Source of the DNA: Amoebophrya sp. A120
Taxonomy: Eukaryota; Protista; Dinoflagellata
Length of the DNA: 64,000 bases
NCBI GenBank assembly: GCA_905178155.1
Contig: CAJINV010000007.1
Location: forward strand, 2,151,151 to 2,215,150
Reading direction: 5' to 3'
Shown here: positions 1 to 51,548 of the stretch, piece by piece
Numbering within the stretch: position 1 is the stretch's first letter
Layout: each line of letters begins with the position of its first letter
Notes under the pieces: model-generated
Databases searched by the model: none
The model's input: the letters and a program-made list of their open reading frames with translations, nothing else
What the model was told of the DNA's origin: nothing
Made by a program: the position numbers and the translations under genes

Positions 1-959
1 GAAAAGGCTAATAAGGTGATCCCGTCCGGCATGGCATCAGAAGTGCTACAATACTCACATCGATGTCGATCCGAAGGAGCATGGAGCGTTGAACAACTCT
101 ACGAATCAACTTCAGCGACTTTGCTCCCGGTCCCGGATCTTTTGCACAACAACTCTATCAAAAATCATGTGCTGTTTCTGTCTGGCAATCACCGCCACCT
201 GGCTGTTGCTTTATCTTCGTGAATTAGCTTTGACTTGTTCCTGTTCGTCTTCGTTCATCATATTTGGATACCCTTTGATGAAGCACCGTCTTGGTACACT
301 TTGCAAACGCAATTTGGCAAAAGCCTCTTTTAGAAGTGCGAGCGAAAAGCTGCACCTCTAGCTATCATCGAATTACAAAATAACAAGACAATATGGGAAG
401 TAGAACGAGAAGTAAATTTCAAGGAGCGTGAAGAAAACGATTGTTCTTAGGTTCGCCGGCAGCGCATAGCCGCGACGTTGAGGTACTTCGACACAACTGA
501 AAGTTCTGAAAAGAGCTCTGAGTTTGCTATATTCAAGAACGAATTTTGGCGTGACATTTTAGAAAATCAAAATCAAGAAGACTTTACTTTCTCAGTCGAA
601 TACCACGGAGGCAGCAGCCCTTCCTGGCGGTTGCTGCTCCACGATTCGCTGATCTCTTCTCGGGTCTTTGAACGCTACAGATAAATAAGGTCTTATTAAA
701 AGAGGTTGCAATCTATATGTAATTCGAGGAAAAAACTGAAGGGTCTTGTACTACAACACTAGCTTTGGTTTGTTGTTCTTGTTACATGAGGGAGAAATTC
801 TAATTTACCATTTCTGGAGGCGAACAAGTTCAGGCTGCTCTCCTTACCGTCTAACAGTAACAAGGAAAAACAGAATCACAGGAAGATAAAAAAGCGGTAG
901 CAGATGTTGATATTCCTGGTTGTTCCTCTCCTCTGCTACTCGCCCTCTTCCACCACTCC

Positions 960-3900
960 TCACACCTCATCTCCCATGTACCGGTCTTCGAGCCAGCTTC
1001 GAGCGTACTCGTTTTGCAGCCCCGGGTCCAGCAGTTTCGGGTCGCCCTTGCTGGCCTTTTCGAAGAACTTTTTGTCGTCCTTTTTGGAGTCGGAGGGGTC
1101 GTGGTCGCACCGCCACGCGCCGAAGAGAAACAGCGCGAGCATCAGCGCTATCCCGAAAACGGACGCCGTGTAGATGATGAACCCGATGTCTGGGTCCATG
1201 ATGCTGTCCATGTAAGGACAGATCGACCGATATATGTTGTCCGGACACAGCGACACGAATATGCTCCGTAACGGGAAGTCACGGAATATGTTCTTGAAAA
1301 ACCCGTCCTCTTCGTGCAACGCGGACTGGATGTCCACCTTCAGCCCGTCCAGCAGTTGCAGCAGCTCGTCCGCCGACCGCGTGCTGCCGTCGCTGCTCGG
1401 CCGGAAGATCGTGTTCACGATCACCCCCTCGGTCGTCGCTGCGGCGCCCGTGCCCGTTCGGGCCTCGGAAATGGACGCGACGACAAAGGTTTCGGAACTC
1501 ACGCCCAGCAGCTGTCCCAGCTCGTACGTGAAGCGGTAGACGTAGTATTTCCGCTCCGGGTGCTCGTCCGAGCGGTTCCAGATCATGTTATTTACCGCCT
1601 CGGGACTGGACATCTTGATCGGGACCATCAGCGTTCGGCTGTAGATGTCTTCCACCCCGCCCTTCGTCGTGGTCAGCGTGTAGGTTGTTCCGTTCAAATA
1701 CGGGTTCACGCGGTGGCCGACCATGTGCAGCTGCATGTTGGGGTCCACGTCTGGGCTCGTCGCCGCGGCGCTCGACGCGTCCATGGCACCGGAGGATGAG
1801 GTGGACGAAGCGGACGCGTCGGTGGACACGAGCTGCACCACGTTCTGCGCCAAGGCCTCGGCTTCGCTCGTTGCGACCGTGGACTGGGTGGTGGAAAGGT
1901 TGGTGCCCGGCTCGATGAAGATCGGGCTCGTTCGCCCAGGCTTCAGCTGCGACGCGGTTGCGTCAATGAAGAAAGCGGGGTCGGAATAGCTGTGGTTTGT
2001 TCGTATTTTCGAATTCAATGTTGTACATGTAGTCATAATATAGAGAACGCGCACGAAGAGCGGTCGTAGTAGTTTGGAAAGAAAAAACCATCAAACTCGT
2101 ATATCCTTGTACCCGTAAGTCTCCTCATTCTCGCACCTCCCGGCGACCGGGATGGTATCCGGCGGACAGTGGGTCACGCAAACAGTCCCGTCCACCGCCA
2201 CCTTGCCGGGTGGGCAGCTGGGCCGGACGATCACCATCCCGACGTCGTAGATGATATCGCGATGCAAGACGCAGATCCGAAAAAACCCGGCTTCTAAACC
2301 AGTGACCCCGTGAAACGTCAGCTCGTCCGCACCCTGCGAGAGCTCCCTGGAGGTGTAGTTGCTGAAAAACCGCAGCTCCGCGAAGGGGTCGTAGTTGTAA
2401 AACGCCTGGCGCTATCCTGTGCAAAAGTATCGCACTCGTATTGCAATCATGCATTGCAAGTCTTTTTCTCAAGGTAAATCAGCATCACAGATTTTGTTTC
2501 TCATGCTGAGAAAATGCTATGCATTTATACGAGTACGATACTTTTGCACAGGATAGGTACAGGGTCAACGCGTCGATCGTGGTCGTCGCCGTCGCGGTCG
2601 TAAGGACGCGGGGCTCGGCGGATGAGGGGACATCTTCTTCGGGATCCACATCGATGTCGATGCCTGTAGATAATTGTCGTGTAAATAAGATGATGAAGAG
2701 TCATGTATTTGAGGTGGGGAAACTGGGTTCAGCCTCTCTTTTAAGTAATTTATGCTTTTCTTCGCAGACGTAACAATATTCGCCTGTTTCAACATGCTTC
2801 CATCACAAAAGTAACACGCGACAAGTGAGTCTCTTAGTTGCAGTATACCTTCCAGATTCCTTCCCTCGTCTTCTCCTTTCGCGGCCCAGTAGGCGTTTTC
2901 GATTTCGAACGCCGCGTTTTCCAAGGCCCGCTCCGTCTCGACCGAAAACTCCAACTTTGTCTGTTCCGATTCCAGCGCAGCTAGCGTCCGCGCTTTCCCG
3001 AAGTTCGCCTGTTCTACGTGGATATGCATTGCAAAAGTATCGTACTAGTATCCTATAAATCGCAATACAAATTTTTTCAGAAGGAAAAATGGAATTTGTA
3101 ATGCTGATTTCGGTAAGAAATAAGATTTGTCATGCATAATTGCAACCAGCCACCCCCCGGCGGAGGCCGCCGGGGAGGGGGCTGTTCGGTGGAGGTGTTC
3201 CGGTGGGGAAGGTGGCGCCAGCAATGACCGCGCGCCGCTACACAACCAAATAAAAAGAACCCGGCCCATGTTTCGGCTATGATCGGCACCATGCCCGGCC
3301 TTAGTAGCTGCGCGCCGTGGGAAAATGCGCACAGGAAACTATTTCCGGGCGCCAACGTTCAAGACGCCACAAGGGCGACGCACCTGCTGCCAGCGCGCGC
3401 GGTCGCTGTGGGAAAGAAGTTGCGGCCACCCTAGGTGGCCGACCAGGTTAAGGCGTGGCGCCGCGCCCCCTCTGGGGGACGCAGAGCGGCGCACGCACTT
3501 TGAACGCCCGCTCTGATCTGAAAGCGAAATAAAACAATGCCGGCCGGTCGCTGCGCCCTAGCGAGCTTCTTTAGGGGGCGCCGCGCGCAGACAAGTGGGC
3601 AGGCTGTGCTCCTGGAGGTGGTCCGCGAGAGGGTCCGCGAGAGGGTCCGGGAGAGGGTCCGGGAGAGGGTCCGGGAGAGGGTCCGGGAGAGGGTCCGGGA
3701 GAGGTTCGGAGAGGGTCCCGGAGAGGGTCCGGGAGAGGGTCGGAGAGGTCCCGAGAGGGTCCGCGGAGAGTTAAAATAGAGGTTCCCGGAGAGGGTCGCG
3801 GTAGAGGGTCACATAGAGGGTCGCCCTATACTACGCACCCTCTCGGACCCTCCCGACCCTCTCCCCCTACCCTCTATTTGACCTCTGTCCACCCTCTACC

Positions 3901-6900
3901 TACCCTCTTCGGGCGTATAGCGCCGCTATAAGGGCCGACATACTACCCACCCTCTCCCTACCCTCTCCTTTACCTCTCGCTTTACCTCTCCCCGACCCTC
4001 TATCTTTCCCCGACCCTCTACTTTACCTCTCCCAACCTCTATTTTACCTCTATGGAACCTCTCCCCACCCTCTACCGGAACCTCTCCGGCCCCGTTTTCT
4101 TCCATATATAAATATATTAATTAGTACGAGTACGATACTTTTGCACAGGATAGTGGATTCTGCGAAGAATTTCCGCGTCGAGTTGGTCCAGGATTTCGTC
4201 GATTTCCCTATCGGCTTGAGTCTTTTTAGATGCTGTGCCTCTACTTTTGCTGGAAGATGTACTGGGTGAAGATGATCCTGCTAGTATTTGCTCTTCGATC
4301 AATTCTCTTCTCTGCACCGGTTCCCCTGGGGTCTGGAACTCCCGGTAGGAAGCGAATTTGAATGCCGGGTTCAAAACCTCGTTTTGCGCCGCAAAAATCA
4401 TCTCATCCAGCTCCCGGCTTTCGACAATATCCGACCAATGTCTGATCCCGCCCCAGTAGTCGACCTCCTGCAGTTTTCTACCGGATTTAGATGACTTCGA
4501 CGTCCTCTTGTCTAGCTCTTTGTCCTTGCTACTGGCACTACCTCCGGGCAACGCAGCTGCGTTACTTGCAGCTGTGCACAGCATTTCGCTGCTTCCGCAC
4601 TTTGCCCACCCGACCTCGTTCATCTTCGCGGTTCTTCTTTCCTCTAGTCTTTGTCTCAGCTCCCGCTTCATCGTCCGCATGAATTCCTGTCTTCTCCGCA
4701 ACGCCCGGTCTTGCCGCGCGTTGGCCGCGTGGATTTCTAGGCGCTCCATAATCCGGTCGTGCTTCTTCACCTCCGCCTCCAGCCATTCGCTGCTGTGCTC
4801 CAGCGCCGCTTCCGGGACTTTCCCGTCGGGCGAGAAGGCCGCCGGGTTTTCCTTCAACAATTCTTCCAACTCCCGCCTCCTTTCTTCCCGTCGTAGCCGC
4901 CGGGCTGACACCACCGTCGCCCCATTCCCGTTGCTATCCGGCGCCGTGCCGTACAGGTTGGCGAACACCCGGAAGTTGTCCGGGACGGGCGGGCACTGCT
5001 CATCCAAAGGCACGAAACCCACGCGGTCGGCCTCTTCGAGCTGGAAACCCCGGATTTTCAGGGGGACCGGGGCACCTGAGGGCGTGGGAGGGGGGATTGC
5101 AGTTTTTCTTTTTTGTCCTCGAAAAGTTGGTTTACTAAAAAATTGCCAGGATTATTGATGCCAAAGAACTTCTGCACAAACTGGCGTAGATTTCATTTCT
5201 TCATCATGTGTGTAAGCCCGTGTAAGTTCAATCTTCAAAGCACAAAAACGATAAAACGAATCTAACTCATTGACGTACCATCCGGAGCCAAATCCGCGAA
5301 GCACCCGCCCTCCTGCAGTTCCTGCGTGCTGCAGGGGTTGGTGACGACATTTTGGTTGATCGTGCACATGGACATCCGGGGCTCGATCGTGCGCGTACCC
5401 GTTTCGTATTGGTACATACAGAACCTCTGGTTCAAGTGCGGACCGTCGCCGACCATTGGCGAGTTTTTCACTTTGGCTTGCTTGATGTTGTTCACACCGG
5501 ACTTGATCTGTGAAAATGGTTTTTGATTTTGGTCGTGGTGTACTTCTCATGCTCTTTAACGAAAGCCAGAACTTGGAAGACTAGAGTTGTCATGCGTGGT
5601 GCCATGCAGAAATATCAAATATGTACCTTCAACTCCGGGTCGTCCTGTTCTAACGTTGCCGGCAGCTGAAATCCCTGCGATTCCTGAATGGTCAAGGACA
5701 GCGTCTGGTTTCCCCGGAGCACCTGGCCCTGCGCGATGGAAATCGTCAAATCCTGGGTGGTCGGATTCCAGGTCGCCTCGTAGCCCTCGATCATGGCCGC
5801 GTCCGGCCCCGTCATGTGGATCTTCGTGTTCCCCAACGCATTGGTGAAGCCGTAGAGCCGCAAGACGATGTCGTCGTTCGGACCGATATCCACGGTCGGC
5901 TTGAACATCATGCTGAACATGAACGTGGACCGAGCGTTCCGGGGGTCGTAGGAGAAAGTGGAAATGTCAAACGACCGGTCGACCACCTGCGGAGAGGAGC
6001 GAATCGGCTGGGACTTGATGATCTGCTTCGTCGTGGTTTGAATCGTCAACCGCGGGTCGTTGGGGTCTAGCCTGCTGGGCAGGCGGAACACGACGTTGGC
6101 CTGGTTCGACTTTATCGTCATCTTGTGCACCTGGTTCGGCGGGATCTCCTCCCCGGCGCGGAGCGTTAGATCCAGGGTGGAAGCTTCCTGGTTCCACTCC
6201 CCAAAGTACTCGATCACGTCCAGAACCTGCGTGGCGCCGTTGGCTGCGGTAGTTGTGACCTGCACCGTCCTCCGGGAGAAATAGGAATAGTGCAGGAGCG
6301 ACTCACCAGGAGGTGGCTCGAGTTTTGGTTGGGCGACCGCGCAGATGAAACCTAGAAAAAAAAATTGGTTGTCGTGATGTGCAAACTTTTGCTACAATGG
6401 ATTCGCTCAATCAGCCAGAAAGCGCTGCAGCATAGCATGCAGTGTAACCTTACGCACGATGGTATGATGCGTAGCGATAACAATTGCGCAGGAGAGCGTG
6501 AAGGAGAACATGATGCGCGGTGGGACGACAACGCATTCTTACGCTATAGACCAAAAAACTACACGAAGAAACCACAAAACAACAAACGGATCATCCGTTT
6601 CTTTACCCGGCAAAGTCAGCCGTATTGTCGTTCCACTTGGCAACGCGACGTTGGTTGCGAATTCTATCGTCAGATCCATGGGTGAGTTCGGATGCGCCAC
6701 CGACCCGACGGCACCGTAGGACAGCTGCGACTCCGTGAACTGCTTCCCCATGTCGTTTACCCGAGTCGTGAAATTGAACAGTTGCTGCGGAATCCCCGCC
6801 GCGGGGACGGCTATCTTCAAAGACGGGTCGTTCAAGTACATCGCGAAGGGAAGTTTGAACCTCTGATCGTACTCAATGAAGAAGATGGTCTCGACCCCCG

Positions 6901-9900
6901 CTGGCACCGGCGCCAAATTTGGGATGATCTGCGCCCGCAACTCGGACGAAACCGAGTCCCAGTACCCGGAACTGTAGGTGATCGCGCCGGAAGTGATGTT
7001 GGTGTACGCAAACATGGGTGCGTTTTTCCCGGATAAAGTGATGATCCCGGATTCTAGATTACCCGTTCCCACATCTCGTGTCAGCCCACCCATGGTGATG
7101 ATGATGGTCGAGTTCGGCCGAATATCGGAGTTCGCCTTGAAGTTGAACATCACCCTTGCGATGGAATTCGACAGCGTCCCCTGCGGCCCCGCGGCGGATT
7201 CAAACACCATCTCGCTGTTCGTGATGTACTTTTTCCCACCGAGTGCGGGCGTTTTTTTCAACATCTCCTTCGCGATGTACGCGCCGCGGCCCTCTATGTT
7301 CAAGATCCCGTCGTTCTCGGACAGTTTGTCTGGTAACCGGAAGCCCTGGTTTATCTCGATGCGGAACACCGTTGCTTGGGTTCGGTGGAGGATGTGGCCC
7401 TCGCGCACGCGGAGAGTCAAAGTATAGGTCGATTGCGTCCAGTCGCCACGGGAATGCGAGCCGTAGGCGTAGAACCTGTTTTATTTTTGAGAAGTTTGGA
7501 TCATCGAAAGTGGGCAGAAAAATGGACCATCTCTGGTGATGTCATGCGTTGTTTCACAAGACAAACCTCTTCTTGTGCAGATAGGTACCAAGTCCGCAAC
7601 AGAAAAATTTCGCCCCACGACTTACACCTTAAGTAGAACAGTATTTTTACCTAAAAGCATCCGCCCCGGTCAGAACAATTTCCCGACTGCTACACCGGAA
7701 TCCGTACAGGTACAGCAACACCTCGTCTCCCTGGTAAAAGACAATCGACGGCTGGATCGTGAAGGTGACGTTACTCACCACGTCCGGCTCGTTGGGCGAA
7801 AACCGGATTTCCGACCGCGTGAACTCCTTTTGTCCGTTGTTGATCGCAGTGGAGGCCATGATAGATCGCTTCGGGGACTCCACCCCGTCCCAGTCGCGGT
7901 TCCAAATCAGCAACGACGGGTCGTTCTCGTACATCGCCGGAGGGATTTGGAGGTCGACGAAAGTGACGGAAATCAGATTTGGCGCTTGGGAATACAGCGT
8001 CCGGATGACTTTCACAGTGAGTTCGTTCCTGGCCAGGTCGAACACGGCCTCCTGGTTGCGGAAGTACTGGATGTAGCTGCCTACTAACGGCACTTCAATA
8101 ATCTCCGCACTGAAACCCGGAAGACGCAGGTAAATCTGGATAATTTTGTTTTGTTCGCAGGTTAGGTGAGTTCTATCATCTTTTTGTTGATGTAATGCTC
8201 ATCGATCCTCAGCATGGAATTTGCGAACGCGATGCAGAATCAGGCATCGAAGAACGATTTGGTACGTAATAAATGCAGAATAATCACAGCAAGCATGTAA
8301 TATACCAAGCTGTCTTTCCAGAGTGGTGTGTTTGTCTGGAAGGTGAGCGTCACATCTACGTAGGTCTTCGTCATCTCTGCATTCTGTCTCGCCGAGCTGT
8401 ACTGTAGCCGTGACTGGAGGAACATGCGCATCTCTTGGATCTGGGTTTCGAGTTTTTTTGGGAAAAAGTTTGATACGATGCATGGCTTCAACGTTGAAGC
8501 AAACTTCTTTGTCATGCTAAAAAGAGCAGCAAAACAAGAAACAAGAAGATCCACTATCAAAAATCTAAATCATCTCTCTACCCTGTCACTCTGGAAGACC
8601 GGGGTTGGCTGGATCACTTCGTCTACCCCGTCGTAACTGAATGCTGCTACTTTAAGCCGGTTTGAATTCGAAGGCAACGAGTTCGGCAGAATGAAATCGT
8701 CCTTGATCGTCTTAAAGGTGATCATCTTCGACGGCGGCAGCACGGAGTCCGTGCGCAGGAAGAAGGTCAGCGCTTTTGAGGTGTCGTTGTACATTGCGAA
8801 GTACTCGAAGAGCACCCAGTCACTCCCCTCGGTCTGGAAGCCGACGTTTCCCGTCATGTCGGAAGTGCTGGTGGCGGCTGTAGAAATGTTTTCGTTGCAC
8901 ATGCATGCTGCACACTGAGCACGACGCAAAATTTCTTTTCATCTCCTTTTTTTTGCAAAACCTGAATGACAAACTACCATGATTATGATAACAAGCACCA
9001 CCACCACGAAACAAAAAAAAATACAGCTCGACGACAGGAAGTTTTGCCAGCTTTCCGACTGGATGTTCCGGGTTAAATCGGGCAGATACGCCACGATCCT
9101 TGCTCCGTTCCTCAACTCGCTGTTGACCTGTACCTTAATGGACACAACCGATTCCGCGTTCGACAATGCGGGATCGAACCTGACTTCTACGTGCGTGAAG
9201 TAATTCACCCGGATGATCTGCGGCACGGCTTTGATGGGTTGCGGCGTCCCGTTTTCGGGTAGGGTGTAACTGTTGGTCGGCTCGGTCCCGAGCTCGTTGG
9301 GCACGTAGGAGAGCTGACTGGCTATCAACGTGAAATCCAGCGGGTTTTCCGATAGCTGGTCCGGCAGGACGAAGCAACACAGCTCCAGATTCGCGTTCGC
9401 CGAGTGCAGAATTTCGTACTTGTCTTTCACTTTCAATTGCAAACTGTACTGCACAAAATCGAAATACGCCGGCGTTTCAAACAACCCGTTTTGGTCCGTG
9501 TTGTACGCCGTCGTGGGGTTCTCCCCCACCGCCGGCTGGTTCGTGCCCGTCACCTCAATTTGCCTCTTGTTCGGGTCCGTCGGGTGGGGTTTCAGGTTTG
9601 AGGGCAGGCCAAAGCCCGGGAGGGCGAAGGTGAGGGCCACGAGTTCCACGGAGTTCGCGACTTGCTTCAACGTGATCGAGGGTCGGAGGATGATTGTCAA
9701 CTTCGCGGTGACACCAGGTCCGGACGGGTTGTACGCGAGAACGGAGACGGGGAAGGTTGGGGGACAAAGCTCTTTACGGAATTGCTGGTAAGCGTCTTCC
9801 GTGCAGACGTTCTGGTGTTATGATGTTTTTGTTGTCCCTTGTTAATTGTCATGTAGGATTCTACGGAGAGAAAGCAAAGCATTTCTGTTTCTCAAGCATG

Positions 9901-14450: not shown

Positions 14451-16951
14451 TTACCCAGTTGTCTCTACCTGAATCTTTTCGTATTTCATGTGAAACACAT
14501 CTTCTTCCATTTCCCCATCACATGTGTACGAAACCTCCCTCAGAAACTTCCTTTCCTCCTCTGCTCCAGACACGCACAGTGGCACCAGCGACGCACTGTA
14601 TTCCTGCGCTGCAATATGCACTGCAAATTGAGTATCTCAACATCTTTTTCTTTATCACGTGCGAACTGCAAACAACAATAAACATGGTAAAAACGAAGTC
14701 ACTGTCACTGACTCCGTGCTTACTACAAAGTCATACATTTTGATTCATATTCCTTTTTGTAAAAACACGACCGGCATGTTGAAGTAGAAGTAGTATGAGC
14801 GCGATACTTTTGCAGATGATATGCCGTGGCTTTGATCAGAAAAGCCTGGACCTGGTGGGGAAAGAGAATGCCAGTGATCGTCACATGGTGCCGCTCGATG
14901 TCAGCTTCTTCGCTTTCGTTTTCCTCTAGAGGAATGTCAGTCGCTTGCTTCGCGTGCTGTTCTTTGTTCTGGTCCTTCTCTTGGTTATCTTTAGCGTCTG
15001 CTTCCGCGATTATGTCTTCCATAGGGTCATCCTCATCCATGTTCAACTTCATAGGCGCAACCTTGTCGTCGCTGTTTAACTTCGGCCGTGTCGTGCTCTT
15101 ACTCGTCGCGTTTTCATCTTTTTTGCTCGAGTTACCCTGCTTGCTTGAAGATGTTCCAGCGCCTGCTCCCGCGGCACCAGTGTTGTTGCTGCCAGTACTA
15201 TTGCTCATCGCGACCCCCTTCACCGTTTCCACCATGGTTTTGGCACTACACCGCTTGTAGCTGGCGTTTAAGAAGGGTCTTTGCGCCACTAGTCTCGGCA
15301 CCGGGTTTTTGGTCGGGTGTTGCAAGTAGCTGCGAACCTGTTCCATGCGGTACACGTCGGCGAATGCCGCAACCGCACCAACCCCTTTGACAAAAACCGA
15401 CGTGTCCGAGGATTTTCTTTTCCCGACGGCCACATTTGCCCTTACCCCACGGTCTATGTTCAGGAAATTCTCTAGCACTTGCCTGTTTTCGAACTGATTG
15501 CTGTCAAGAACCCCCGCTCTCTCGCCGCCCGCAGCCGCGGTCGCGGCCGTTTGCTTTTTCAAATCGAAGCTCTCGGCGGGGCAGTCGAAGGGCACCTGGT
15601 GCTTCTTCAATAAATCGCGAAACTCTGGCTTCGTCGGGGACGCGTGGATCTCCGTGTCTGACCGGAACATCACCACCATGGACTGCCCGTGGTCTGCGAC
15701 GAACATACTGTTGTGATTCGCGTTCATCTCGTCCAACGCAAGCTCGTCCGAAGAATCAAAATCATCGTCGTCGGAGGCAGATGAGTCGCTGATGATTTTG
15801 TTCGATGGTGGTTTCCTAATGTTTTTCTTATTTCCGCCCCCGCTCGCCGCGCCTCTTGCAGGCGTTTGGAGTTGGAGCTTTGACATTTTGTTCTTTTCAC
15901 GACCGTTGGGAAGGTTCTTTTTGTCATTATCATCATCCACCTCCTCCTCGTCCTCGCTAAACGCGACTTTTCTCCTGCTTTTCGGCATCCTGTTCTTTCT
16001 TCGCAGTTCCATCTTTCTTTCCCGTTCTCGCACTGCGTCCCCGTGGTCGCGGGCAAGTCTGACCAGGTCCAGAAACGCGTGCGACCAGCTTTTTGCAATC
16101 TTCTGGACTTCGTGCTGGTGTGGCGGGATAAGTCTGTTTTGTTGATGTCCTCCACCTCCTATGGCGTTCTGAGAAAGAACCTGACCCTGCTCTATTGCAG
16201 CGACGCTGACCGCATTGAATTCGTAATATTCCAAAGCTGCGTTCGTGTGGGCCATGCACATAGCGATTTGCTCCAAATTTTCCTCCACGTCGATATGCTC
16301 CGAGATCGGGTGTCGCTCCAGTAACCGTCTCACCTGGTTGAAATCTTCGGGTCGAAACGACCCTAGACCCGGCGCGGTCAGCCACTTGAAACTCCAGTCA
16401 TCGGCGGCGAAATGGAGTTTCTGAAACACTGCGGTTTCGTCCCGCGCGAGTAGCTTATTCCCGTGTTTGTTGTACTCACTATTCTTGTAATTATTTCCGA
16501 GAATATTCGGCGAACTAGACCAGTGCTTCGACCGTTTTCTCTTCGACTTCTGGATGGACCGAAGCAGGATATTATGCTGCTCTAGAAAGTGGTCGCGGTT
16601 TCCTCTCCCTCGTCTGCCCGTCGACTTCGCGCCGAGCAATGCTCCTCTGCGCTTCCGCTCCTCGATTTGCTCCCTTCCCGGCGTGGAGAGGTGTTGGTGA
16701 TTGTCCTGCTCTCCGTCGGGATGGTTCCTCACAACCTCGTTGCGCTGCTTCGCCCCGAAATACGCATTCACGCTTTCAAACTTGTCCTCGCTTGCGTTTA
16801 ATATTTGGTGACCTGCAGCGGCACTGGACGAGGACAACTCAGCAACAGGATCACCTCCCGCTGCTAGATCTTTCGCCAACCTTTCCCGTTCTGCGGCTTC
16901 CGCGGCCCTGCGCTCGCGCAGCTGCTGCTTGATCGCCACGCGGGCACGCAT
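14451..16951 (-). CDS. DONSON: DONSON-like (downstream neighbour of SON) replication factor
   Basis: Motifs DWSFK, SWSHAFLDL, SPTKPEFRDLLKKHQVPF, VFVKG, PRLVAQRPFLNAS and VTITGILFPHQV occur in the DONSON order. The last exon (14609-14451, AQEYSASLVPL...FLREVSYT) joins after introner removal. Confidence 0.7.
14615..14821. mobile_element. Introner with family-A-like TIRs, 207 bp
   Basis: Right end gcgatacttttgcagatgata; left end tatgcactgcaaa. Degenerate TSD tgcaa/tgccg. Removing the element plus 5 nt gives an open 53-codon terminal exon. Confidence 0.75.
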
Positions 16952-18111: not shown

Positions 18112-20148
18112 TTACTTCTTGACGCCCACATCCATGACCGGTTTCTGTTGTATACAGTTTTTTTTCGCATATTATGAATTCTTGTTGAGAGCAGGAACCT
18201 AGTACACGACAATCATATTTGGTGGCCGAACAGAATCACAAATCGAGTTCGAGTTTATGCTTTTGCATGACAGAAACCAGAAGCACAACATCTCTACTGT
18301 ACCACGAAGTAGCTTGGGTTTGTCCTGACCGGCGGGGTGATAGCCCACGGTGGCTGCACGCGCACGTCTGGCAAGCTGCCGAAGGTCGGGGTTTCTGCCT
18401 GGGTCAGCTGTTTGAAGGTCATCTGACCGTCCTTCTGCTGGGCGAAGCACGGGAAGGTGTCACTGTTTGATTGTATGTGGTTTTTCATTGTACTAAAATG
18501 TGATCTTCATCTGTGTGTTCGTGATCTCACGCGGCGTGAAGATGTTCACACAGCGCTACATGGACTACACTTGTCATGCAGAGCCGGAACGAAAACAACG
18601 CCCTGTAAATCTTCGATAACGGGAAAATAACATACCGGCTTGGAGCTAAGCTTTCTCCCTTCATCTTCTCGTAGACACCGGTGTTGTGGTGCAGAACATC
18701 GTGGTTCCTGACGGGATCGTGACCACCATATCCGCTTGGAAGACCGGTCTTGACCTGGATAGTTTAGATAAACATGAATACTGACTTGGCTACATCACAA
18801 ATTGACCTAAAAAATACACAACACCTGAAGAAGTTGCCCCTAATAGACAGCGACGCTACATCCCGGATGTTAGTTGCAAGTGTATACATGGTGAGTGCTT
18901 TAGTTTTGGTTTCCCATGGCCGCGGATTTTTAAAATTTTATTTCTATTGACGACGAAAAGCGGACACAAGAAGTTCACTCTCGGAAGATAGCTGTGACTC
19001 TGCTTCTGGTGCTACAAGAACACTGCAATGTCTCTCGACTTCCAACAACCGCGAAAATTCAAAATTTTATTTTTATTAAGCTAAAAACTTGCGAAAGTTT
19101 AAAGCTTTATTTGTGTTCAGGTTCACGGAACAGCGGATATTACGTGTGAATAGCCGGTCCATTTAGATGTGCAACGTAGAAAATGTAAGGAATTTTCAAT
19201 CCGCGAAATTTTAAGATTTTATTTTTATTGAAAAACCAAATCCGCGAAATTTCAAAATTTTATTTTCATGCACTACGAAATCGCAAAGCATCCTGACATG
19301 GAAGATTATAAGTACATGAAATCATAGCAGAAGCTGCGACCGCCGCAGTCGAGCGTACGCGAAGCAGCGCTGGTACCGCCGACCGAGCGAGCAGCGCCAC
19401 CGCCGACCGCCGAACAGCGACGACCAGCGCCACCGCCAAGCAGCGCCGACCGCCGAGCAGCGCGACCGCCGAGCAGCGCCACCGCCGACCGCCGACCGCC
19501 GACCGCCGAGCAGCGCCACCGCCGACCGCCGAGCAGCGCCACCGCCGACCACCGACCACCGACCGCCGAGCAGCGCCGACCGCCGACCGCCGACCGCCGA
19601 CCGCCGAGCAGCGCCACCGCCGAGCAGCGCCACCGCCGGCCGCCGAGCAGCGCCACCGCCGGCCGCCGAGCAGCGCCACCGCCGGCCGCCGAGCAGCGCC
19701 ACCGCCGACCGCCGAGCAGCGCCACCGCCGACCTCCGACCGCCGAGCAGCGCCAACCGCCGACCAGCGCCACCGCCGATCGCCGAGCAGCGCCACCGCCG
19801 AGCAGCGCCACCGCCGATCGCCGAGCAGCGCCACCGCCGATCGCCGAGCAGCGCCACCGCCGGGCAGCGCCACCGCCGAGCAACGCCGCGACCGACAAGC
19901 GTCAAGCAGCGCGAACGCCCGGATGAAGTACAACAAGTAGTAGCTGAACACTCGCTATTTCTATTAACTAGCATCCACGCTGCAACATATCGTACCGAGA
20001 CTTCCCGATTGTGCATGGTATCGAAGGCGGTTGTTCGGTACATGTTCTTTGCCGCGTCCCGGAACTCGGTGTGCCACTCCCACTGTCGGCTGAGGTCGCC
20101 CTTCAGGCAGGCCTCCTGGATCTCCTCCTTCGTCATAGGTCGCGCCAT
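18112..20148 (-). CDS. Small 4-exon protein with a PSGYGGH motif; putative microtubule-inner/cytoskeletal protein (FAM166-like motif)
   Basis: GT-AG joins give MARPMTKEEIQ...MYRTTAFDTMHNREVS|VKTGLPSGYGGHDPVRNHDVLHHNT...R|DTFPCF...PPWAITPP...SYFV|KPVMDVGVKK*. The start context is TCAAAATG. Function is inferred from the motif only. Confidence 0.75.
19365..19890 (+). repeat. GC-rich intronic minisatellite (CCGCCGAGCAGCGCCA and CCGCCGA units)
   Basis: Directly visible mixed 7/16/23-bp units inside the GT-AG intron 18755-19995. Confidence 0.95.
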
Positions 20149-41258: not shown

Positions 41259-44200
41259 CTACCCCAGCCCCTGCGTTATGACGTCGAAAAACGAGACGAC
41301 AAACGCGACGGTCGTAAACGCCAGACAGAACTGCGCCACCTGCTGCATCCGCTCCCGGGAGATCCACTTGTGCGGCAGCCCCCAGTGCGCCTTGCTGCTC
41401 CGATCGTGGAGACTGGACCGCATCTCCAAGTACCCCTCTGCCTCGTTCGTCAAGTAGACCTCATTGTACTTGAGAAACACGATGAACGGCACGACAAAGT
41501 TCACAAACGTGCAGAACAGGAGAGACCCATAATTCAAAAAATCCTGCGTGCCCTCGCCGTGGTTCCAGGTTTGCAGGGGAATGGCCAGCGTCCAGGGGAG
41601 GGCGATGGCCCAAATATTCGCGACGAACGCGGTCTCGCAAAGCTGATTGTGCGGTTTGATTTTGCGCTTTGAGTAGAGGTGAATTCAACTTCGACCTGTT
41701 GATGAGGCAAGTTACTTGATGCCAGAAGCAGAACAAACACAATCCCATGTAGTGAGTCCGCAGCAACATACTACTATACCTCTTGCTCCAGCAGGTTGTA
41801 GCGACACACGATGCTGCAGAGCGGCACCCCGGTGAGCGCCGCGACCAGGGGAAAGGTGTAGCAGGTGAAGCGAACGAGAAACGAGTTTGTTCTGTGAATC
41901 ATCACAGTCAGGAAGTTCGCTTGCTCCGAAAGTAGGTGACCGAAGAAAGCGGCGCCGAGGATGCCGACCGTGAGGTAGATCACCGTACATATCCGGAGTA
42001 AAAACGTCCCCACGCCAGAGTTGTCATGCAGATTTGCAATGACAGGAACATTTGTAATGCGCATCGCCAGGAGAGGCATTTTTAGTCGTGTTTTGGAATT
42101 TGTAATGCTGTAAACAGGATGAGCAGATGGATTTCTGATGCAGCTGGCCTTGCGAACCTGCACTACACTACGGACTGCAACTTCTGATGCGTGACCCCCA
42201 AAAGTTCTAGGTTTGTGTTGCAAAGTCCCCATCTTGACTCCGGTGTGGGGATGTTTTTACTCAGGATAGTACAGAGCGACATGGAGAACTGATTTCAATA
42301 ATATTTGCTTCTTTATTTGGGCAAGAGAAACAGAAAGAGAAACACTCCACCGAAGGAGCGACGCAGCAAAAAAGGCTACAGCAAAGCCTCTGTTACTTTT
42401 GTTCGTGCTAGTAACTCATCGCATGCAACCCTGAACAAGCTTTCTGTTTCTGTTTCTTTCCTTCATCAAAAAAGTAAAGAATCTCCCACAAATCATACCC
42501 ACACACTCCTGCTGACAGACACTTCGGGGCTTTTCTCGTTGAGCCAGGAGGGGATGATCATGCACACAGCGAAGTTGGACAAGACCGTGCCCATTAGCTG
42601 CGAGTATTTGCCGTCGCCAAACGGATCCGTTTTGAAGTACGTCTCTACCTCGTGCACGTCGTTGGTCCCGACCGGCGGTGGCTTTGGTTTCGGCTTACTA
42701 TCTTCACTACTTGAAGATGGTGCAGCCGTGCGGCCCTTGTTTTGTGGTTCCTCGGCCGAAGGCGGAGCTGAAGACGAGGTGGAGGAGGCTTTCTGCGTCG
42801 TCTCGTCTTTATTCTCGTGCGCGGTGTGGGTCGTTTCTGTGCTAGTACTACCATGTCTATCTTGTTGTTCCCGACCTCTATTATCACTTCCCGTTCTTAC
42901 CGTTGCGTGTGCGTCACTTGACGTGCTGCTGGCGCTATCGCTGCCTGTCTTGGTTGTGTCTTTCGTACCTATACTTGGCTTTCCTGTCTCGGCCGAGCTT
43001 TTTGACGATGGGGAAGATGTTGGGCTTGCATCTGTTGTAGGACCTGAAGGTGCCGATTTGCTTGTCTTTGTGTCTTCATCTGACTTCTTTGCTGCTCGAC
43101 TAGTCATCTCTGAGGAATCGCCGGCCACCTGCGTCAACTCTGCTTGTGCTTGCTGCTCCTTTTTTCCCGCGTTACTACTTGAAGCATTGTCCACCTTTAC
43201 CTTTGGAGAGGGAGGTAGATCCCCCACTGGTGATACGATGTTCTCCGGTTTCCCTCCTGTAGCCTGTTCCACTAGCTCCAACTCTCCCGCTGGCCCAGCT
43301 GCTGCTGTTATTCCAGAAGCAGCTTCGGAAGTAAACCTCATTTCACTTACTGCGCCTGAGTCTTCTGATCTCGTCTGCAGTAACGAGAGCGGATGCTCAG
43401 GAAGAGTTCTACTTCTGGGGTCGTCATCTTCTGCATGCCTCATATCGCTGCCCGTTCTTGAGGGAGATGAGGCTAAAGGTGCTTCAAAAATGTCTGGATG
43501 CGTGGTTATTTTCCTGGTCTCATTCAGCATCGACATCACAGTCACCACCGCTGCTGTGCCCGCGGCTTTCACGGCGTCATGTGTGGTGCCAACTAATTGC
43601 TGCGATTTTTCTGTAGCTGCTGTCGCTAGGCTGCTTGCCGTTGCCCTCAATGCGGTTGTAGCGGCTGTTGCCGCAGCAGCTCTGGCGGCGTTCATGCTAC
43701 TGGTGGTGGACGTCGTTGCTGTACCCGCTGCAGCGCTAGTACCGACCATCACAGCTGATGTTGATGAGGAATTTTCTCCGATCCCACTCCCGTCTGTTCC
43801 GCCACAAAGTAAGTCGTAGACCCACAACGCGAAGGTGCAGAAGCAGAAGATGAACGTGACTACCTGCACCGGCACATTGTCCTCCATATTCACGATGGCC
43901 AGGGGCACGGCGAGCAGACAGCAAACCAAATACCCTTCCGTGATTGCGGGGGAAACAAAGGGGGTGTTGACCGGCTCCTGAATTTTTCCGGACAAGGAGT
44001 CCGTGTCCTTTTGGATGCAGTGCAAGCCGAACCCGTTGCTTAAGCCCGTCGCCACTCTACTCGAATCAATATCCGTTAGTGATGCGAAGTCCAGGGAGAA
44101 GCCGCAATTCCGGCCCGTCAACTCCAAGATCAGACCGTCGATCCCCTGCGCGGTTGTCACAATCGAGACTACGTTCAATGTCTGCAACGCGCCGAACAGC

Positions 44201-49703: not shown

Positions 49704-51548
49704 TCATATTAATACAAACAAAAACCCCTGGCCACAAAAAAACGGCAAAAAGTTTCAAGACACGCGCGCGCGCGCGTTACGCGCGCGCGGGTAACGCGTG
49801 CGCGAGCGCGGGCGCGCGTAATGCGCGCACACGCGTAACGCGTACAGGCGGGCGCGTAACGCGCTGCGCGTCGCGTAACGCGCACACGCGTAACGCGCGA
49901 GGCACGCGGGGGGGCCGGGCGGGGGCCGGGCGGGGGCCGGGGGGGCAGCCGGCAGCAGGCGGGGGCGGGGGATGGGGGGGGCCGCGCCCCCCCCCGGCGG
50001 CCGCGGGCCGGGCGGGCGCCGCGGGCAGGCGGCAGGGGCCGGCAGCTGGCGGGGGCGGGGAATGGGGGGGGCCGCGCCCCCTCCCCGGCGGCCGCGGGCC
50101 GGGCGCCGCGGGCGGGCGGCAGGGAGCGGCAGCTGGCGGGCACGCAGGCGGCAGGGAGCGGCAGCTGGCGGGCATGCAGGCGGCCGGGGGCGGCAGCTGG
50201 CGGGGGCGGGGGGTTAGGGGGGCCGCGGGCGGGCGGCAGGGGCCGGCATCTGGCGGGCACGCAGGCGGCCGGGAGCGGCAGCTGGCGGGCGGGGGCCGGC
50301 ATCCGCCCCGCGGGCAGGCGGCCGGGAGCGGCAGCTGGCGGGGGCGGGGAATGGGGGGGGCCGCGCCCCCGCCCCGGCGGCCGCGGGCCGGGCGCCGCGG
50401 GCGGGCGGCAGGGGCCGGCATCCGGCGGGCACGCAGGCGGCCGGGAGCGGCAGCTGGCGGGGGCGGGGAATGGGGGGGGCCGCGCTCCCCCCGGCGGCCG
50501 CGGGCCCGCCGGGCGCCGCGGGCGGGCGGCAGCCAGGGGCCGGAATCTGGCAGACTGGGTGGGTGGCGGGCACGCAGGCGGCCGGGGCCGGCAAAATTCC
50601 CCCGCAAATGGGCGGCGGCGCGGGGCGCGCGGGGGCCGGGCGGGCAGGCGGCCCTGGGCGGGGGCGGGGAATGGGGGACGGGCGCGCCCCTCCCCCGGCG
50701 GCCTCGGGCCGGGCGGGCAGGCGGAGCGGGCGAGCCGGCAACAGGTGGGGGCGCGCGGGGGGCGGGGGCCGGCCGCGGGTCGGGCGGGCGGAAGGGGTCG
50801 GCGGCGCGCGGGGGCGGGGAATGGCGGGGGCCGCGCCCCCCCGGCGGCCGCGCGCGGCCCGGGGCCGGGCCGGGGGGGGCGGGCAAGCAGGCGCGCGGCG
50901 GCCGCCCGCAGGCGGGCGCGGGCCGGACGGCGGGGGGCGGCTGCAGGCGGGGGCCGGAGGGGGGCCGCGCCCCCTCCCCCGCCGGCCGCGGCGGGCTTGG
51001 GGCGGGCAGGCGGCGACGAATCGCCCGCCGCAGCAGGCAGGCGGCCGGGGTCGGCCGTAGGGAAACATGTGCGAGCGGGCGGCGGTCGGGCGCGGCTGCG
51101 GGCGGGGGCGGGGACGGCAACGTGCTGTGGTAGCACCAAGGCTTCCCGCCCGGCGGCCGGGGGGCGGGAACAGGCGACCGCAGGCAAGCGGGCCGCCCGA
51201 TTAGCCGGCGCGCACGTGCTTCGCGGGCAAGCGAGACGGGCAAATGCCCTCCCCTGCGGCCAGTGCACAGCACCACGCGGGGACAGGCGAGGGCGCCTCG
51301 ACCCGATGGGGGCCCGTTACCGATGGGCCCCTCGGGGGCTGCGCGCCGAAGCGCGGTTGGACGACACCGACGGCACTTTTATTTTGGTTTCGCGTTCTTT
51401 GGACGAAAATCTTGGCGCGCAGTTTCTGATTTTTCGAACGAACGACAACGCGCGGGCTTTTTGTGCCTAGCCGCACGAATTGCGCGGCCTTCAGTCTGTA
51501 ACTTTTTGCTTTAACTATACTGGCCAGGGGCCGGACTGCTTTCCCTAG
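49704..51548 (+). mobile_element. Non-autonomous Helitron-like element (1,845 bp) with an extremely GC-rich repeat core
   Basis: 5' end A|CTCATATTAATA. 3' hairpin ctggcc-agg-ggccgg (51520-51534), then CTAG|T (51545-51548). Subterminal inverted repeats cccctggcca (49725-49734)/tggccagggg (51521-51530) and gcaaaaagtt/aactttttgc. No TSD. Confidence 0.65.
49760..51120 (+). repeat. CG-alternating CGCGTAACGCG block followed by a G-run minisatellite
   Basis: 49760-49900 is largely alternating purine/pyrimidine. 49900-51100 has recurrent GGCAGCTGGCGGGGGCGGGGAATGGGGGGGGCCGCGCCCC units. Confidence 0.9.

What the first reader, a model, noticed from the sequence alone, without database searches (positions are those of the whole stretch)
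3146..4124. Helitron-like element nested in an introner nested in an exon
Seen: the sister introner gives the empty site (GTA|TTGCAA). The 979-bp insert sits exactly at A|T with no TSD and ends in a 9-bp GC hairpin plus CTGG. Known: A|T insertion, a 3' hairpin and CTRR are Helitron hallmarks. Unusual: the 5' end is CT rather than TC. Inference: the introner tolerates ~7-fold expansion, so such introns can shelter other mobile elements.
Basis: partly seen in the sequence, partly recalled or inferred. Interest (0 to 1): 0.74.

Follow-up and report, generated by a model that had tools for sequence, protein, structure and literature searches.

The report
Helitron-like element inside a spliced introner
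A 975-base repeated element, likely a rolling-circle (Helitron-type) transposon, sits inside a small hairpin-ended intron of a conserved gene in what is likely a marine parasitic dinoflagellate, and transcript-like assemblies skip the whole seven-times-enlarged intron exactly, so the insertion likely does the gene no harm.

Summary
The insert is 975 bp (3146-4120, minus strand), not 979: 4121-4124 is host introner sequence (120 sister contigs). It therefore starts TT, not CT, ends in a 9-bp hairpin plus CTGG, and fits A|T with no duplication. It is a multicopy family: three other copies leave the window sequence at these ends and run into other flanks. Two RNA-like contigs skip the whole 1,135-nt intron (160 nt without the insert, 7.1-fold) in frame, and a homologous protein is colinear across it. 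Best reading (0.72): a non-autonomous Helitron-like element with ends like the oomycete proto-Helentron (5'-TT, A|T, no TSD). It fails the 5'-TC test of canonical Helitrons and the TIR test of HLE2. No RepHel partner could be sought because no genome is held. A 2-bp TT duplication is disfavoured, not excluded. That the RNA came from cells carrying the filled allele is not shown. The scan already noted a LINE and a 13.8-kb transposon nested in introners elsewhere in this genome, so sheltering is not new here. Modest interest.

The parts
3146..4120 (-). 975-bp non-coding multicopy element, likely non-autonomous Helitron-like; starts TT, ends CTGG, between host A and T
   Evidence: Empty-site form in sister contigs; other copies leave the window at 3143-3145 and 4120-4121; no Pfam hit above cut-off in 8 of its 20 listed frames
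3155..3175 (-). 3' hairpin core (9-bp stem, 3-nt loop), ending 9 nt before the element end; can extend imperfectly to the terminal CTG
   Evidence: the terminal 81 nt are identical in L001
3146..3149 (-). 3' terminal CTGG (fits CTRR)
   Evidence: Sequence; same end in L001
4096..4120 (-). AT-rich 5' end (12% GC), starting TT
   Evidence: other copies reach 4120-4121 (X3 record 9, X7 records 29-31)
3600..4095 (.). Large imperfect fold-back: degenerate purine-rich repeats (about 3835-4095) facing a 12-bp minisatellite (3620-3810, 16 copies)
   Evidence: whole insert z -7.05 against 20 shuffles
4121..4124 (-). 4-nt spacer of the host introner, wrongly counted as the insert's start
   Evidence: table 7; table 5c; the L001 sister also has a 4-nt spacer here
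3023..4152 (-). Host introner (TAT...ATA, TIRs of about 28 bp at 4125-4152 and 3023-3050); 155 bp without the insert
3018..4152 (-). 1,135-nt non-GT-AG intron skipped in RNA-like contigs (joint can slide 6 nt); 5-bp direct repeat at 3018-3022 and 4153-4157
   Evidence: X6 contig of 6,893 nt covers 2848-3023 and 4153-4420 with adjoining record positions; X3 loose end at 4153 equals 2988-3017
2413..2555 (.). Sister introner; 148 nt skipped in the X6 contig
4153..5076 (-). Upstream coding exon of the host gene
   Evidence: tblastn of P0001 residues 1113-1419; RNA-like contigs
2848..3017 (-). Downstream coding exon, in frame after the joint
   Evidence: P0001 residues 1418-1474

Best explanation
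The 975-bp insert is a multicopy non-coding element that is likely a non-autonomous rolling-circle (Helitron-like) transposon, and it sits 32 nt inside a hairpin-ended introner that transcript-like contigs skip whole and in frame. Shown: the boundaries, the empty site, other copies with the same ends and other flanks, the 3' hairpin plus CTGG, and the exact skip of 1,135 nt. Inferred: a RepHel transposase encoded elsewhere in the genome would nick at the 5'-TT end, peel off one strand, stop at the hairpin-CTGG signal and paste the copy between A and T without duplication. Inferred: the host survives because the insert leaves both introner ends intact; these are predicted to pair equally well with or without it, so splicing that reads the ends would ignore the added kilobase. 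The introner is likely a chance AT-rich landing place that selection tolerates, not a specific target.
For: Ends: A|TT ... hairpin-CTGG|T; hairpin controls. Other copies: L001 shares the last 81 nt exactly and then has another flank; X6 record 13 (20 differences, 6 gaps) aligns 3145-3525 and has 45 further nt; X3 record 9 (7 differences) aligns 3972-4121 and has 21 further nt; X7 records 29-31 stop at 4120, 4121, 4121. Summed contig depth over the insert in X1 is 290-2,400 against 26 for single-copy exons (the tool says this is no copy number). Published ends: HLE1 TC...hairpin-CTRR at A|T (PMC11417382, passages); proto-Helentron 5'-TT, 3'-CTAG, A|T, no TSD (PMC4067079, passages); hairpin as terminator 11 nt from the end (PMC4778049, passages); a RepHel in the dinoflagellate Symbiodinium (PMC8788227, passages). 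Splicing; unspliced, the frame stops 11 codons into the intron. TIR pairing: 21.9 of 28 nt filled, 21.8 modelled empty, 20.1-22.0 in 12 of 12 shuffled inserts.
Against: The 5' end is TT, not the canonical TC, and the 3' end is CTGG, not the proto-Helentron's CTAG. No RepHel was found: none in 21 window ORFs, and the genome could not be searched. Two of three known 3' flanks begin TT (window and L001 both TTG), which also fits a TT duplication. The arguments against that (X6 record 13 stopping at 3145, X3 record 9 reaching 4121) are read from alignment coordinates, not from printed flank letters. No copy other than the window's is held with both ends. No listed contig bridges either insert junction of this locus in X1, so the nesting rests on the window assembly, and the RNA-like samples could carry an empty allele. 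The RNA label of X3 and X6 is the tool's guess.
Confidence: 0.72

Rival explanations
1. The element is 973 bp (3146-4118), targets TT and leaves a 2-bp TT repeat, moved by a different enzyme (Crypton-type tyrosine recombinase, Replitron Rep, or an unknown DDE transposase) or by an HLE2-type transposase with T-rich ends.
For: The filled site has TT on both sides and the empty site one TT; L001 also has TT after CTGG. HINEs are flanked by Ts on both ends (PMC4067079, passages). Replitrons have short terminal direct repeats and a right-end hairpin (PMC10288648, passages).
Against: X6 record 13 stops aligning after one T; the A before TT is shared by X3 record 9 and by two of three X7 contig ends. 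No terminal inverted repeat beyond chance: best 10 nt with one mismatch, reached by 20 of 200 shuffles. No 6-bp terminal direct repeat is seen. The CTRR end would be coincidence.
Confidence: 0.15
2. The element is a SINE-like retroposon read on the plus strand, with a GC-rich head at 3146 and an AT-rich tail at 4120.
For: AT-rich (TA)n-like end at 4101-4120; retroelements are reported among Amoebophrya introners (PMC12130899, passages).
Against: No TSD beyond 2 nt. The supposed 5' end is precise and identical over 81 nt in another assembly, where retroposons are usually 5'-truncated (recalled). The tail end stops at the same place in four contigs. No Rfam match at gathering score.
Confidence: 0.06
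3. The element is real but its place inside this introner is a mis-assembly or a rare allele, so the spliced RNA says nothing about tolerance of expansion.
For: X1 contigs break at 3047 and 4148 and no listed piece bridges an insert junction. At several positions (3259, 3282, 3403, 3507) every laid X1 contig differs from the window copy.
Against: Both junctions are base-exact against the commonest empty form and against the ends of other copies. Exons are identical between window, X1, X3 and X6 (0 differences in the listed pieces). Private differences also fit an older, fixed insertion whose variants were dropped from contigs.
Confidence: 0.07

Closest known systems
proto-Helentron-Pi of Phytophthora infestans (Thomas et al. 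2014, PMC4067079, passages; revisited in PMC11417382, section 24 read)
   Same: 5'-TT start, insertion between A and T, no TSD, Helitron-like ends
   Different: This one is 975 bp and non-coding, ends CTGG rather than CTAG, and lies in a dinoflagellate-like genome. HELIANO reports about 12-nt TIRs and a 5' stem-loop in the Phytophthora family; no such TIR is seen here. RepHel unknown.
Canonical Helitrons (HLE1), e.g. Helraiser (PMC4778049, PMC11417382, passages)
   Same: A|T target, no TSD, hairpin about 10 nt before a CTRR end
   Different: 5' end TT, not TC; no RepHel partner shown
HLE2 / Helentron non-autonomous elements, HINE and DINE-1 (PMC4067079, passages)
   Same: Non-coding, 3' stem-loop, large internal tandem repeats, T-rich ends
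   Different: No 11-18-nt subterminal inverted repeats; the target fits A|T better than T|T
Introner elements of Amoebophrya (Farhat et al. 2021, PMC7789003; passages, section 10, supplement search)
   Same: Host intron has terminal inverted repeats, a 5-nt direct repeat and non-GT-AG ends
   Different: This copy carries a nested element. 'Helitron' occurs 0 times in that paper's main text and its one held supplement.

Membership tests
Helitron (HLE1) | 5'-TC terminus | tested here: not met
   Starts TT after the boundary correction
Helitron (HLE1) | 3' hairpin followed by CTRR | tested here: met
   9-bp stem, 5 nt, CTGG; same end in L001
Helitron (HLE1) | Insertion between A and T without TSD | tested here: inconclusive
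   Fits the empty site and three other copy ends, but a TT duplication is only disfavoured, from alignment coordinates
Helitron-like elements (all) | RepHel transposase in an autonomous partner with the same ends | not testable with these tools
   No genome held; none in 21 window ORFs; end patterns found only L001
Helitron-like elements (all) | Interspersed copies with shared precise termini | tested here: met
   L001, X6 record 13, X3 record 9, X7 records 29-31; each shows one end only
HLE2 (Helitron2/Helentron) | 11-18-nt terminal or subterminal inverted repeats | tested here: not met
   Best 10 nt with one mismatch; 20 of 200 shuffles reach it
HLE2 (Helitron2/Helentron) | Insertion at T|T | tested here: inconclusive
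   The window site allows T|T; the shared A at 4121 and the stop at 3145 favour A|T
proto-Helentron | 5'-TT start, A|T target, no TSD | tested here: met
   with the same TT caveat
proto-Helentron | 3'-CTAG | tested here: not met
   CTGG in window and L001
proto-Helentron | Helentron-clade RepHel lacking the endonuclease domain | not testable with these tools
   No autonomous copy in hand
Amoebophrya-type introner (host) | Terminal inverted repeats and a 3-5-nt direct repeat at the exon borders | tested here: met
Amoebophrya-type introner (host) | Multicopy and removed from transcripts | tested here: met
   5,630 X1 contigs laid on 2200-3612, mostly on the introners by depth; skip in X3 and X6 contigs, whose RNA label is a guess

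The most novel reading that the evidence does not exclude
Syndinian parasites carry an undescribed rolling-circle transposon lineage with TT...CTGG ends, the first proto-Helentron-type ends outside oomycetes, and their thousands of end-defined introners act as neutral landing pads that let such elements sit inside coding exons.
Probability: 0.3. Interest if true: 0.58.

Novelty: new member of a known kind. Interest (0 to 1): 0.38.

Why it matters
It adds a likely Helitron-type family to a lineage for which the papers I searched name none, with ends otherwise reported only from Phytophthora (PMC11417382, section 24). It is also a natural experiment on an unexplained splicing system: 975 nt added 32 nt from the intron's 5' end does not shift the joint, which points to the ends as the signal. 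The surprise is limited. Transposons in introns are ordinary (general knowledge), kilobase-long Amoebophrya introners are already tabulated (fam103, about 1.2 kb, PMC12130899 dataset row), and this scan has noted larger nested cases.

Tried and rejected
Genome-wide search for copies and RepHel: impossible, no genome held for the window or for L001. Exact end patterns: 0 hits in viral contigs, 0 in prokaryote genomes, 1 in metagenome contigs; that contig starts inside the element, so its 5' end is missing. Raw-read RNA run X13 laid 0 reads, so it is no test. Rfam: two weak matches far below gathering score, rejected. Pfam on 8 of 20 insert frames: one hit below cut-off, rejected. Protein Atlas gave no answer. 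The idea that the insert's own fold-back helps the introner ends pair was rejected: shuffled or reversed inserts give the same predicted pairing. Specific targeting of this introner position was rejected: the L001 copy's flank does not match the introner and X3 record 9 leaves the window at 4121. Earlier scan notes: none by sequence, none with 'Helitron' in this genome. Literature: 'introner + nested + helitron' 0 papers; 'amoebophrya + helitron' one work, whose dataset file 8 has 18 'helitron' places, none in an Amoebophrya row; 2 of its 14 supplement files were not searched. PMC13085455 had none of my five terms.
Full report
Setting. No whole genome is held for this window. Nearly all long ORFs lie on the minus strand. 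An exon of the host gene has 23 homologues among 3,930 candidates, with named hits from Effrenium and Symbiodinium at 43-46% identity and one unnamed protein, P0001, at 84%. With the hairpin-ended non-GT-AG introns this fits an Amoebophrya-like dinoflagellate as described by Farhat et al. (PMC7789003; passages and section 10 read, supplement searched). The lineage is my inference.

Observation. Removing the insert leaves a sequence that aligns end to end with the sister introner at 2413-2555 (79% over 146 nt). On the minus strand the insert ends in a 9-bp stem with a 3-nt loop, 5 nt, then CTGG and a host T. The last 45 nt fold at z -4.0 (0 of 200 shuffles as stable). Among 381 CTRR-T sites in the window, 12 have a stem of 7 bp or more nearby and only this one has a short loop. 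The 5' half is a fold-back of about 500 nt, built from a 12-bp minisatellite (3620-3810) facing degenerate inverse repeats. Eight of the 20 listed frames were scanned and gave no Pfam hit above cut-off.

Boundary correction. The sister lacks a 4-nt spacer that is common in the family. In run X1, 120 contigs align from 4119 onward and 64 from 4120, preceded by introner-internal sequence; X7 shows 47 and 16 (24 of 79 loose-end rows shown). Sister contigs read 3145, TTAG, then the TIR (table 5c). The L001 sister also has 4 nt at this place. So 4121-4124 is host, and the element is 3146-4120, 975 bp, starting TT. The target remains A|T.

Other copies. A pattern scan of metagenome contigs gave one locus, L001. 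It shares the last 81 nt exactly, is 90-95% alike further in, has about 75-80 extra nt, and runs into a flank that does not match the introner. X6 record 13 (430 nt, 20 differences, 6 gaps) aligns 3145-3525 and has 45 nt left over. X3 record 9 (171 nt, 7 differences) aligns 3972-4121 with 21 nt left over, and three X7 contigs stop at 4120, 4121 and 4121. I deduced the orientation of minus-strand records from the ordered pieces of the X6 transcript contig. Summed depth on the insert in X1 is 290-2,400,350 against about 26 for exons; the tool warns that this is no copy number, so I say only 'multicopy, probably tens'. A seawater metagenome holds a 235-nt piece of the interior (X9 record 19). No second copy is held with both ends.

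TSD or not. The filled site reads A-TT...CTGG-TT and the empty site A-TT, so the window alone cannot tell an element that starts TT from a duplicated TT. Window and L001 both continue TTG, which fits duplication. Against it, X6 record 13 stops after one T, and the A before TT is shared by X3 record 9 and two of three X7 contig ends. These points rest on alignment coordinates. A|T without duplication is favoured, not proven.

Splicing. The 6,893-nt X6 contig covers 2200-2407, 2556-2662, 2848-3023 (record 4485-4660) and 4153-4420 (record 4223-4490) with no differences. The 6-nt overlap is the direct repeat, so 1,135 nt are skipped. In X3, the loose end at 4153 equals 2988-3017. X3 and X6 are one sample, and their RNA label is a guess. 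The joint is in frame, whereas read-through stops after 11 codons. P0001 is colinear across it: residues up to 1419 map to 4156 and residues from 1418 map from 3020. Without the insert the intron would be 160 nt, a 7.1-fold expansion. Predicted pairing of the introner ends is 21.9 of 28 nt filled, 21.8 modelled empty, 21.7 with the insert reversed and 20.1-22.0 in 12 of 12 shuffles, so the end helix is predicted not to depend on what lies between. Caveat: X1 contigs break at 3047 and 4148 and no listed piece bridges an insert junction, so it is not shown that the spliced RNA came from the filled allele.

Mechanism. Shown: ends, empty site, other copies, exact skip. From the literature: Helitrons insert at A|T without TSD and use a hairpin about 11 nt from the 3' end as terminator (PMC4778049, passages); HLE1 starts TC, HLE2 has short TIRs and inserts at T|T (PMC11417382, passages and section 24); the Phytophthora proto-Helentron has 5'-TT, 3'-CTAG, A|T and no TSD, and HINEs often hold tandem repeats (PMC4067079, passages); a RepHel exists in Symbiodinium (PMC8788227, passages). 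Inferred: a RepHel acting in trans copied this element into an AT-rich spot 32 nt inside the introner, and the insertion persisted because both ends stayed intact. I put this at 0.72. Rivals: a TT-duplicating element of another class (0.15; Replitron features from PMC10288648, passages), a mis-assembly or rare allele (0.07), a retroposon read the other way (0.06).

Membership. It works like a Helitron by its ends. It fails the HLE1 5'-TC test, the HLE2 TIR test (best 10 nt with one mismatch, 20 of 200 shuffles) and the strict proto-Helentron CTAG. The RepHel test could not be run (none in 21 window ORFs). I file it as Helitron-like, subgroup open.

Novelty. My searches found no Helitron named for Amoebophrya and no paper holding 'introner', 'nested' and 'helitron' together; the library lacks most subscription papers, and 2 of 14 supplement files of PMC12130899 were not searched. 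That dataset does class one Polarella introner family as Helitron and lists Amoebophrya introners of about 1.2 kb. Unreviewed notes of this scan describe a LINE and a 13.8-kb transposon nested in introners elsewhere in this genome, which I did not check. The case is real and tidy but of modest interest: 0.38.

Noticed in passing
window 49725-51529: A 1.8-kb very GC-rich repeat region bounded by an imperfect inverted repeat of about 35 nt, with no obvious TSD. Its units hold a 28-nt stretch 86-89% like the left arm of the insert's 3' hairpin, which may inflate depth at 3160-3207.
   Followed up: partly
window 18920-19925: Four AT-rich 39-nt repeats followed by a 500-nt array of 23/16/7-nt GC-rich units; possibly another non-coding mobile element.
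   Followed up: no
window 14794-14821: A lone, diverged TIR of the same introner family at an exon border; no partner end found.
   Followed up: partly
window 41990-42268: A 279-bp TAT...ATA inverted-repeat element with a perfect 5-bp direct repeat, likely another introner.
   Followed up: no
window 905-9817 (minus): Host gene encodes a conserved dinoflagellate protein of about 1,500-1,960 aa with internal repeats and no Pfam match.
   Followed up: partly
window 3259, 3282-3284, 3403, 3507, 3527: All or nearly all laid X1 contig depth differs from the window copy at these places: either private mutations of an older insertion or assembly errors.
   Followed up: no
L001 5006-5150: A diverged sister (74%) of the host introner with the same asymmetric end type.
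   Followed up: partly
L001 about 1200-1250, 2710-2750, 3715-3750: A 35-50-nt sequence repeated three times, 1.0 and 1.5 kb apart, seen by eye; possibly ends of a retroelement.
   Followed up: no
window 2408-2555: The sister's flanking 5-mers match at only 3 of 5 places, yet 148 nt (element plus 5) are skipped; this fits the fixed cut register in earlier scan notes.
   Followed up: partly
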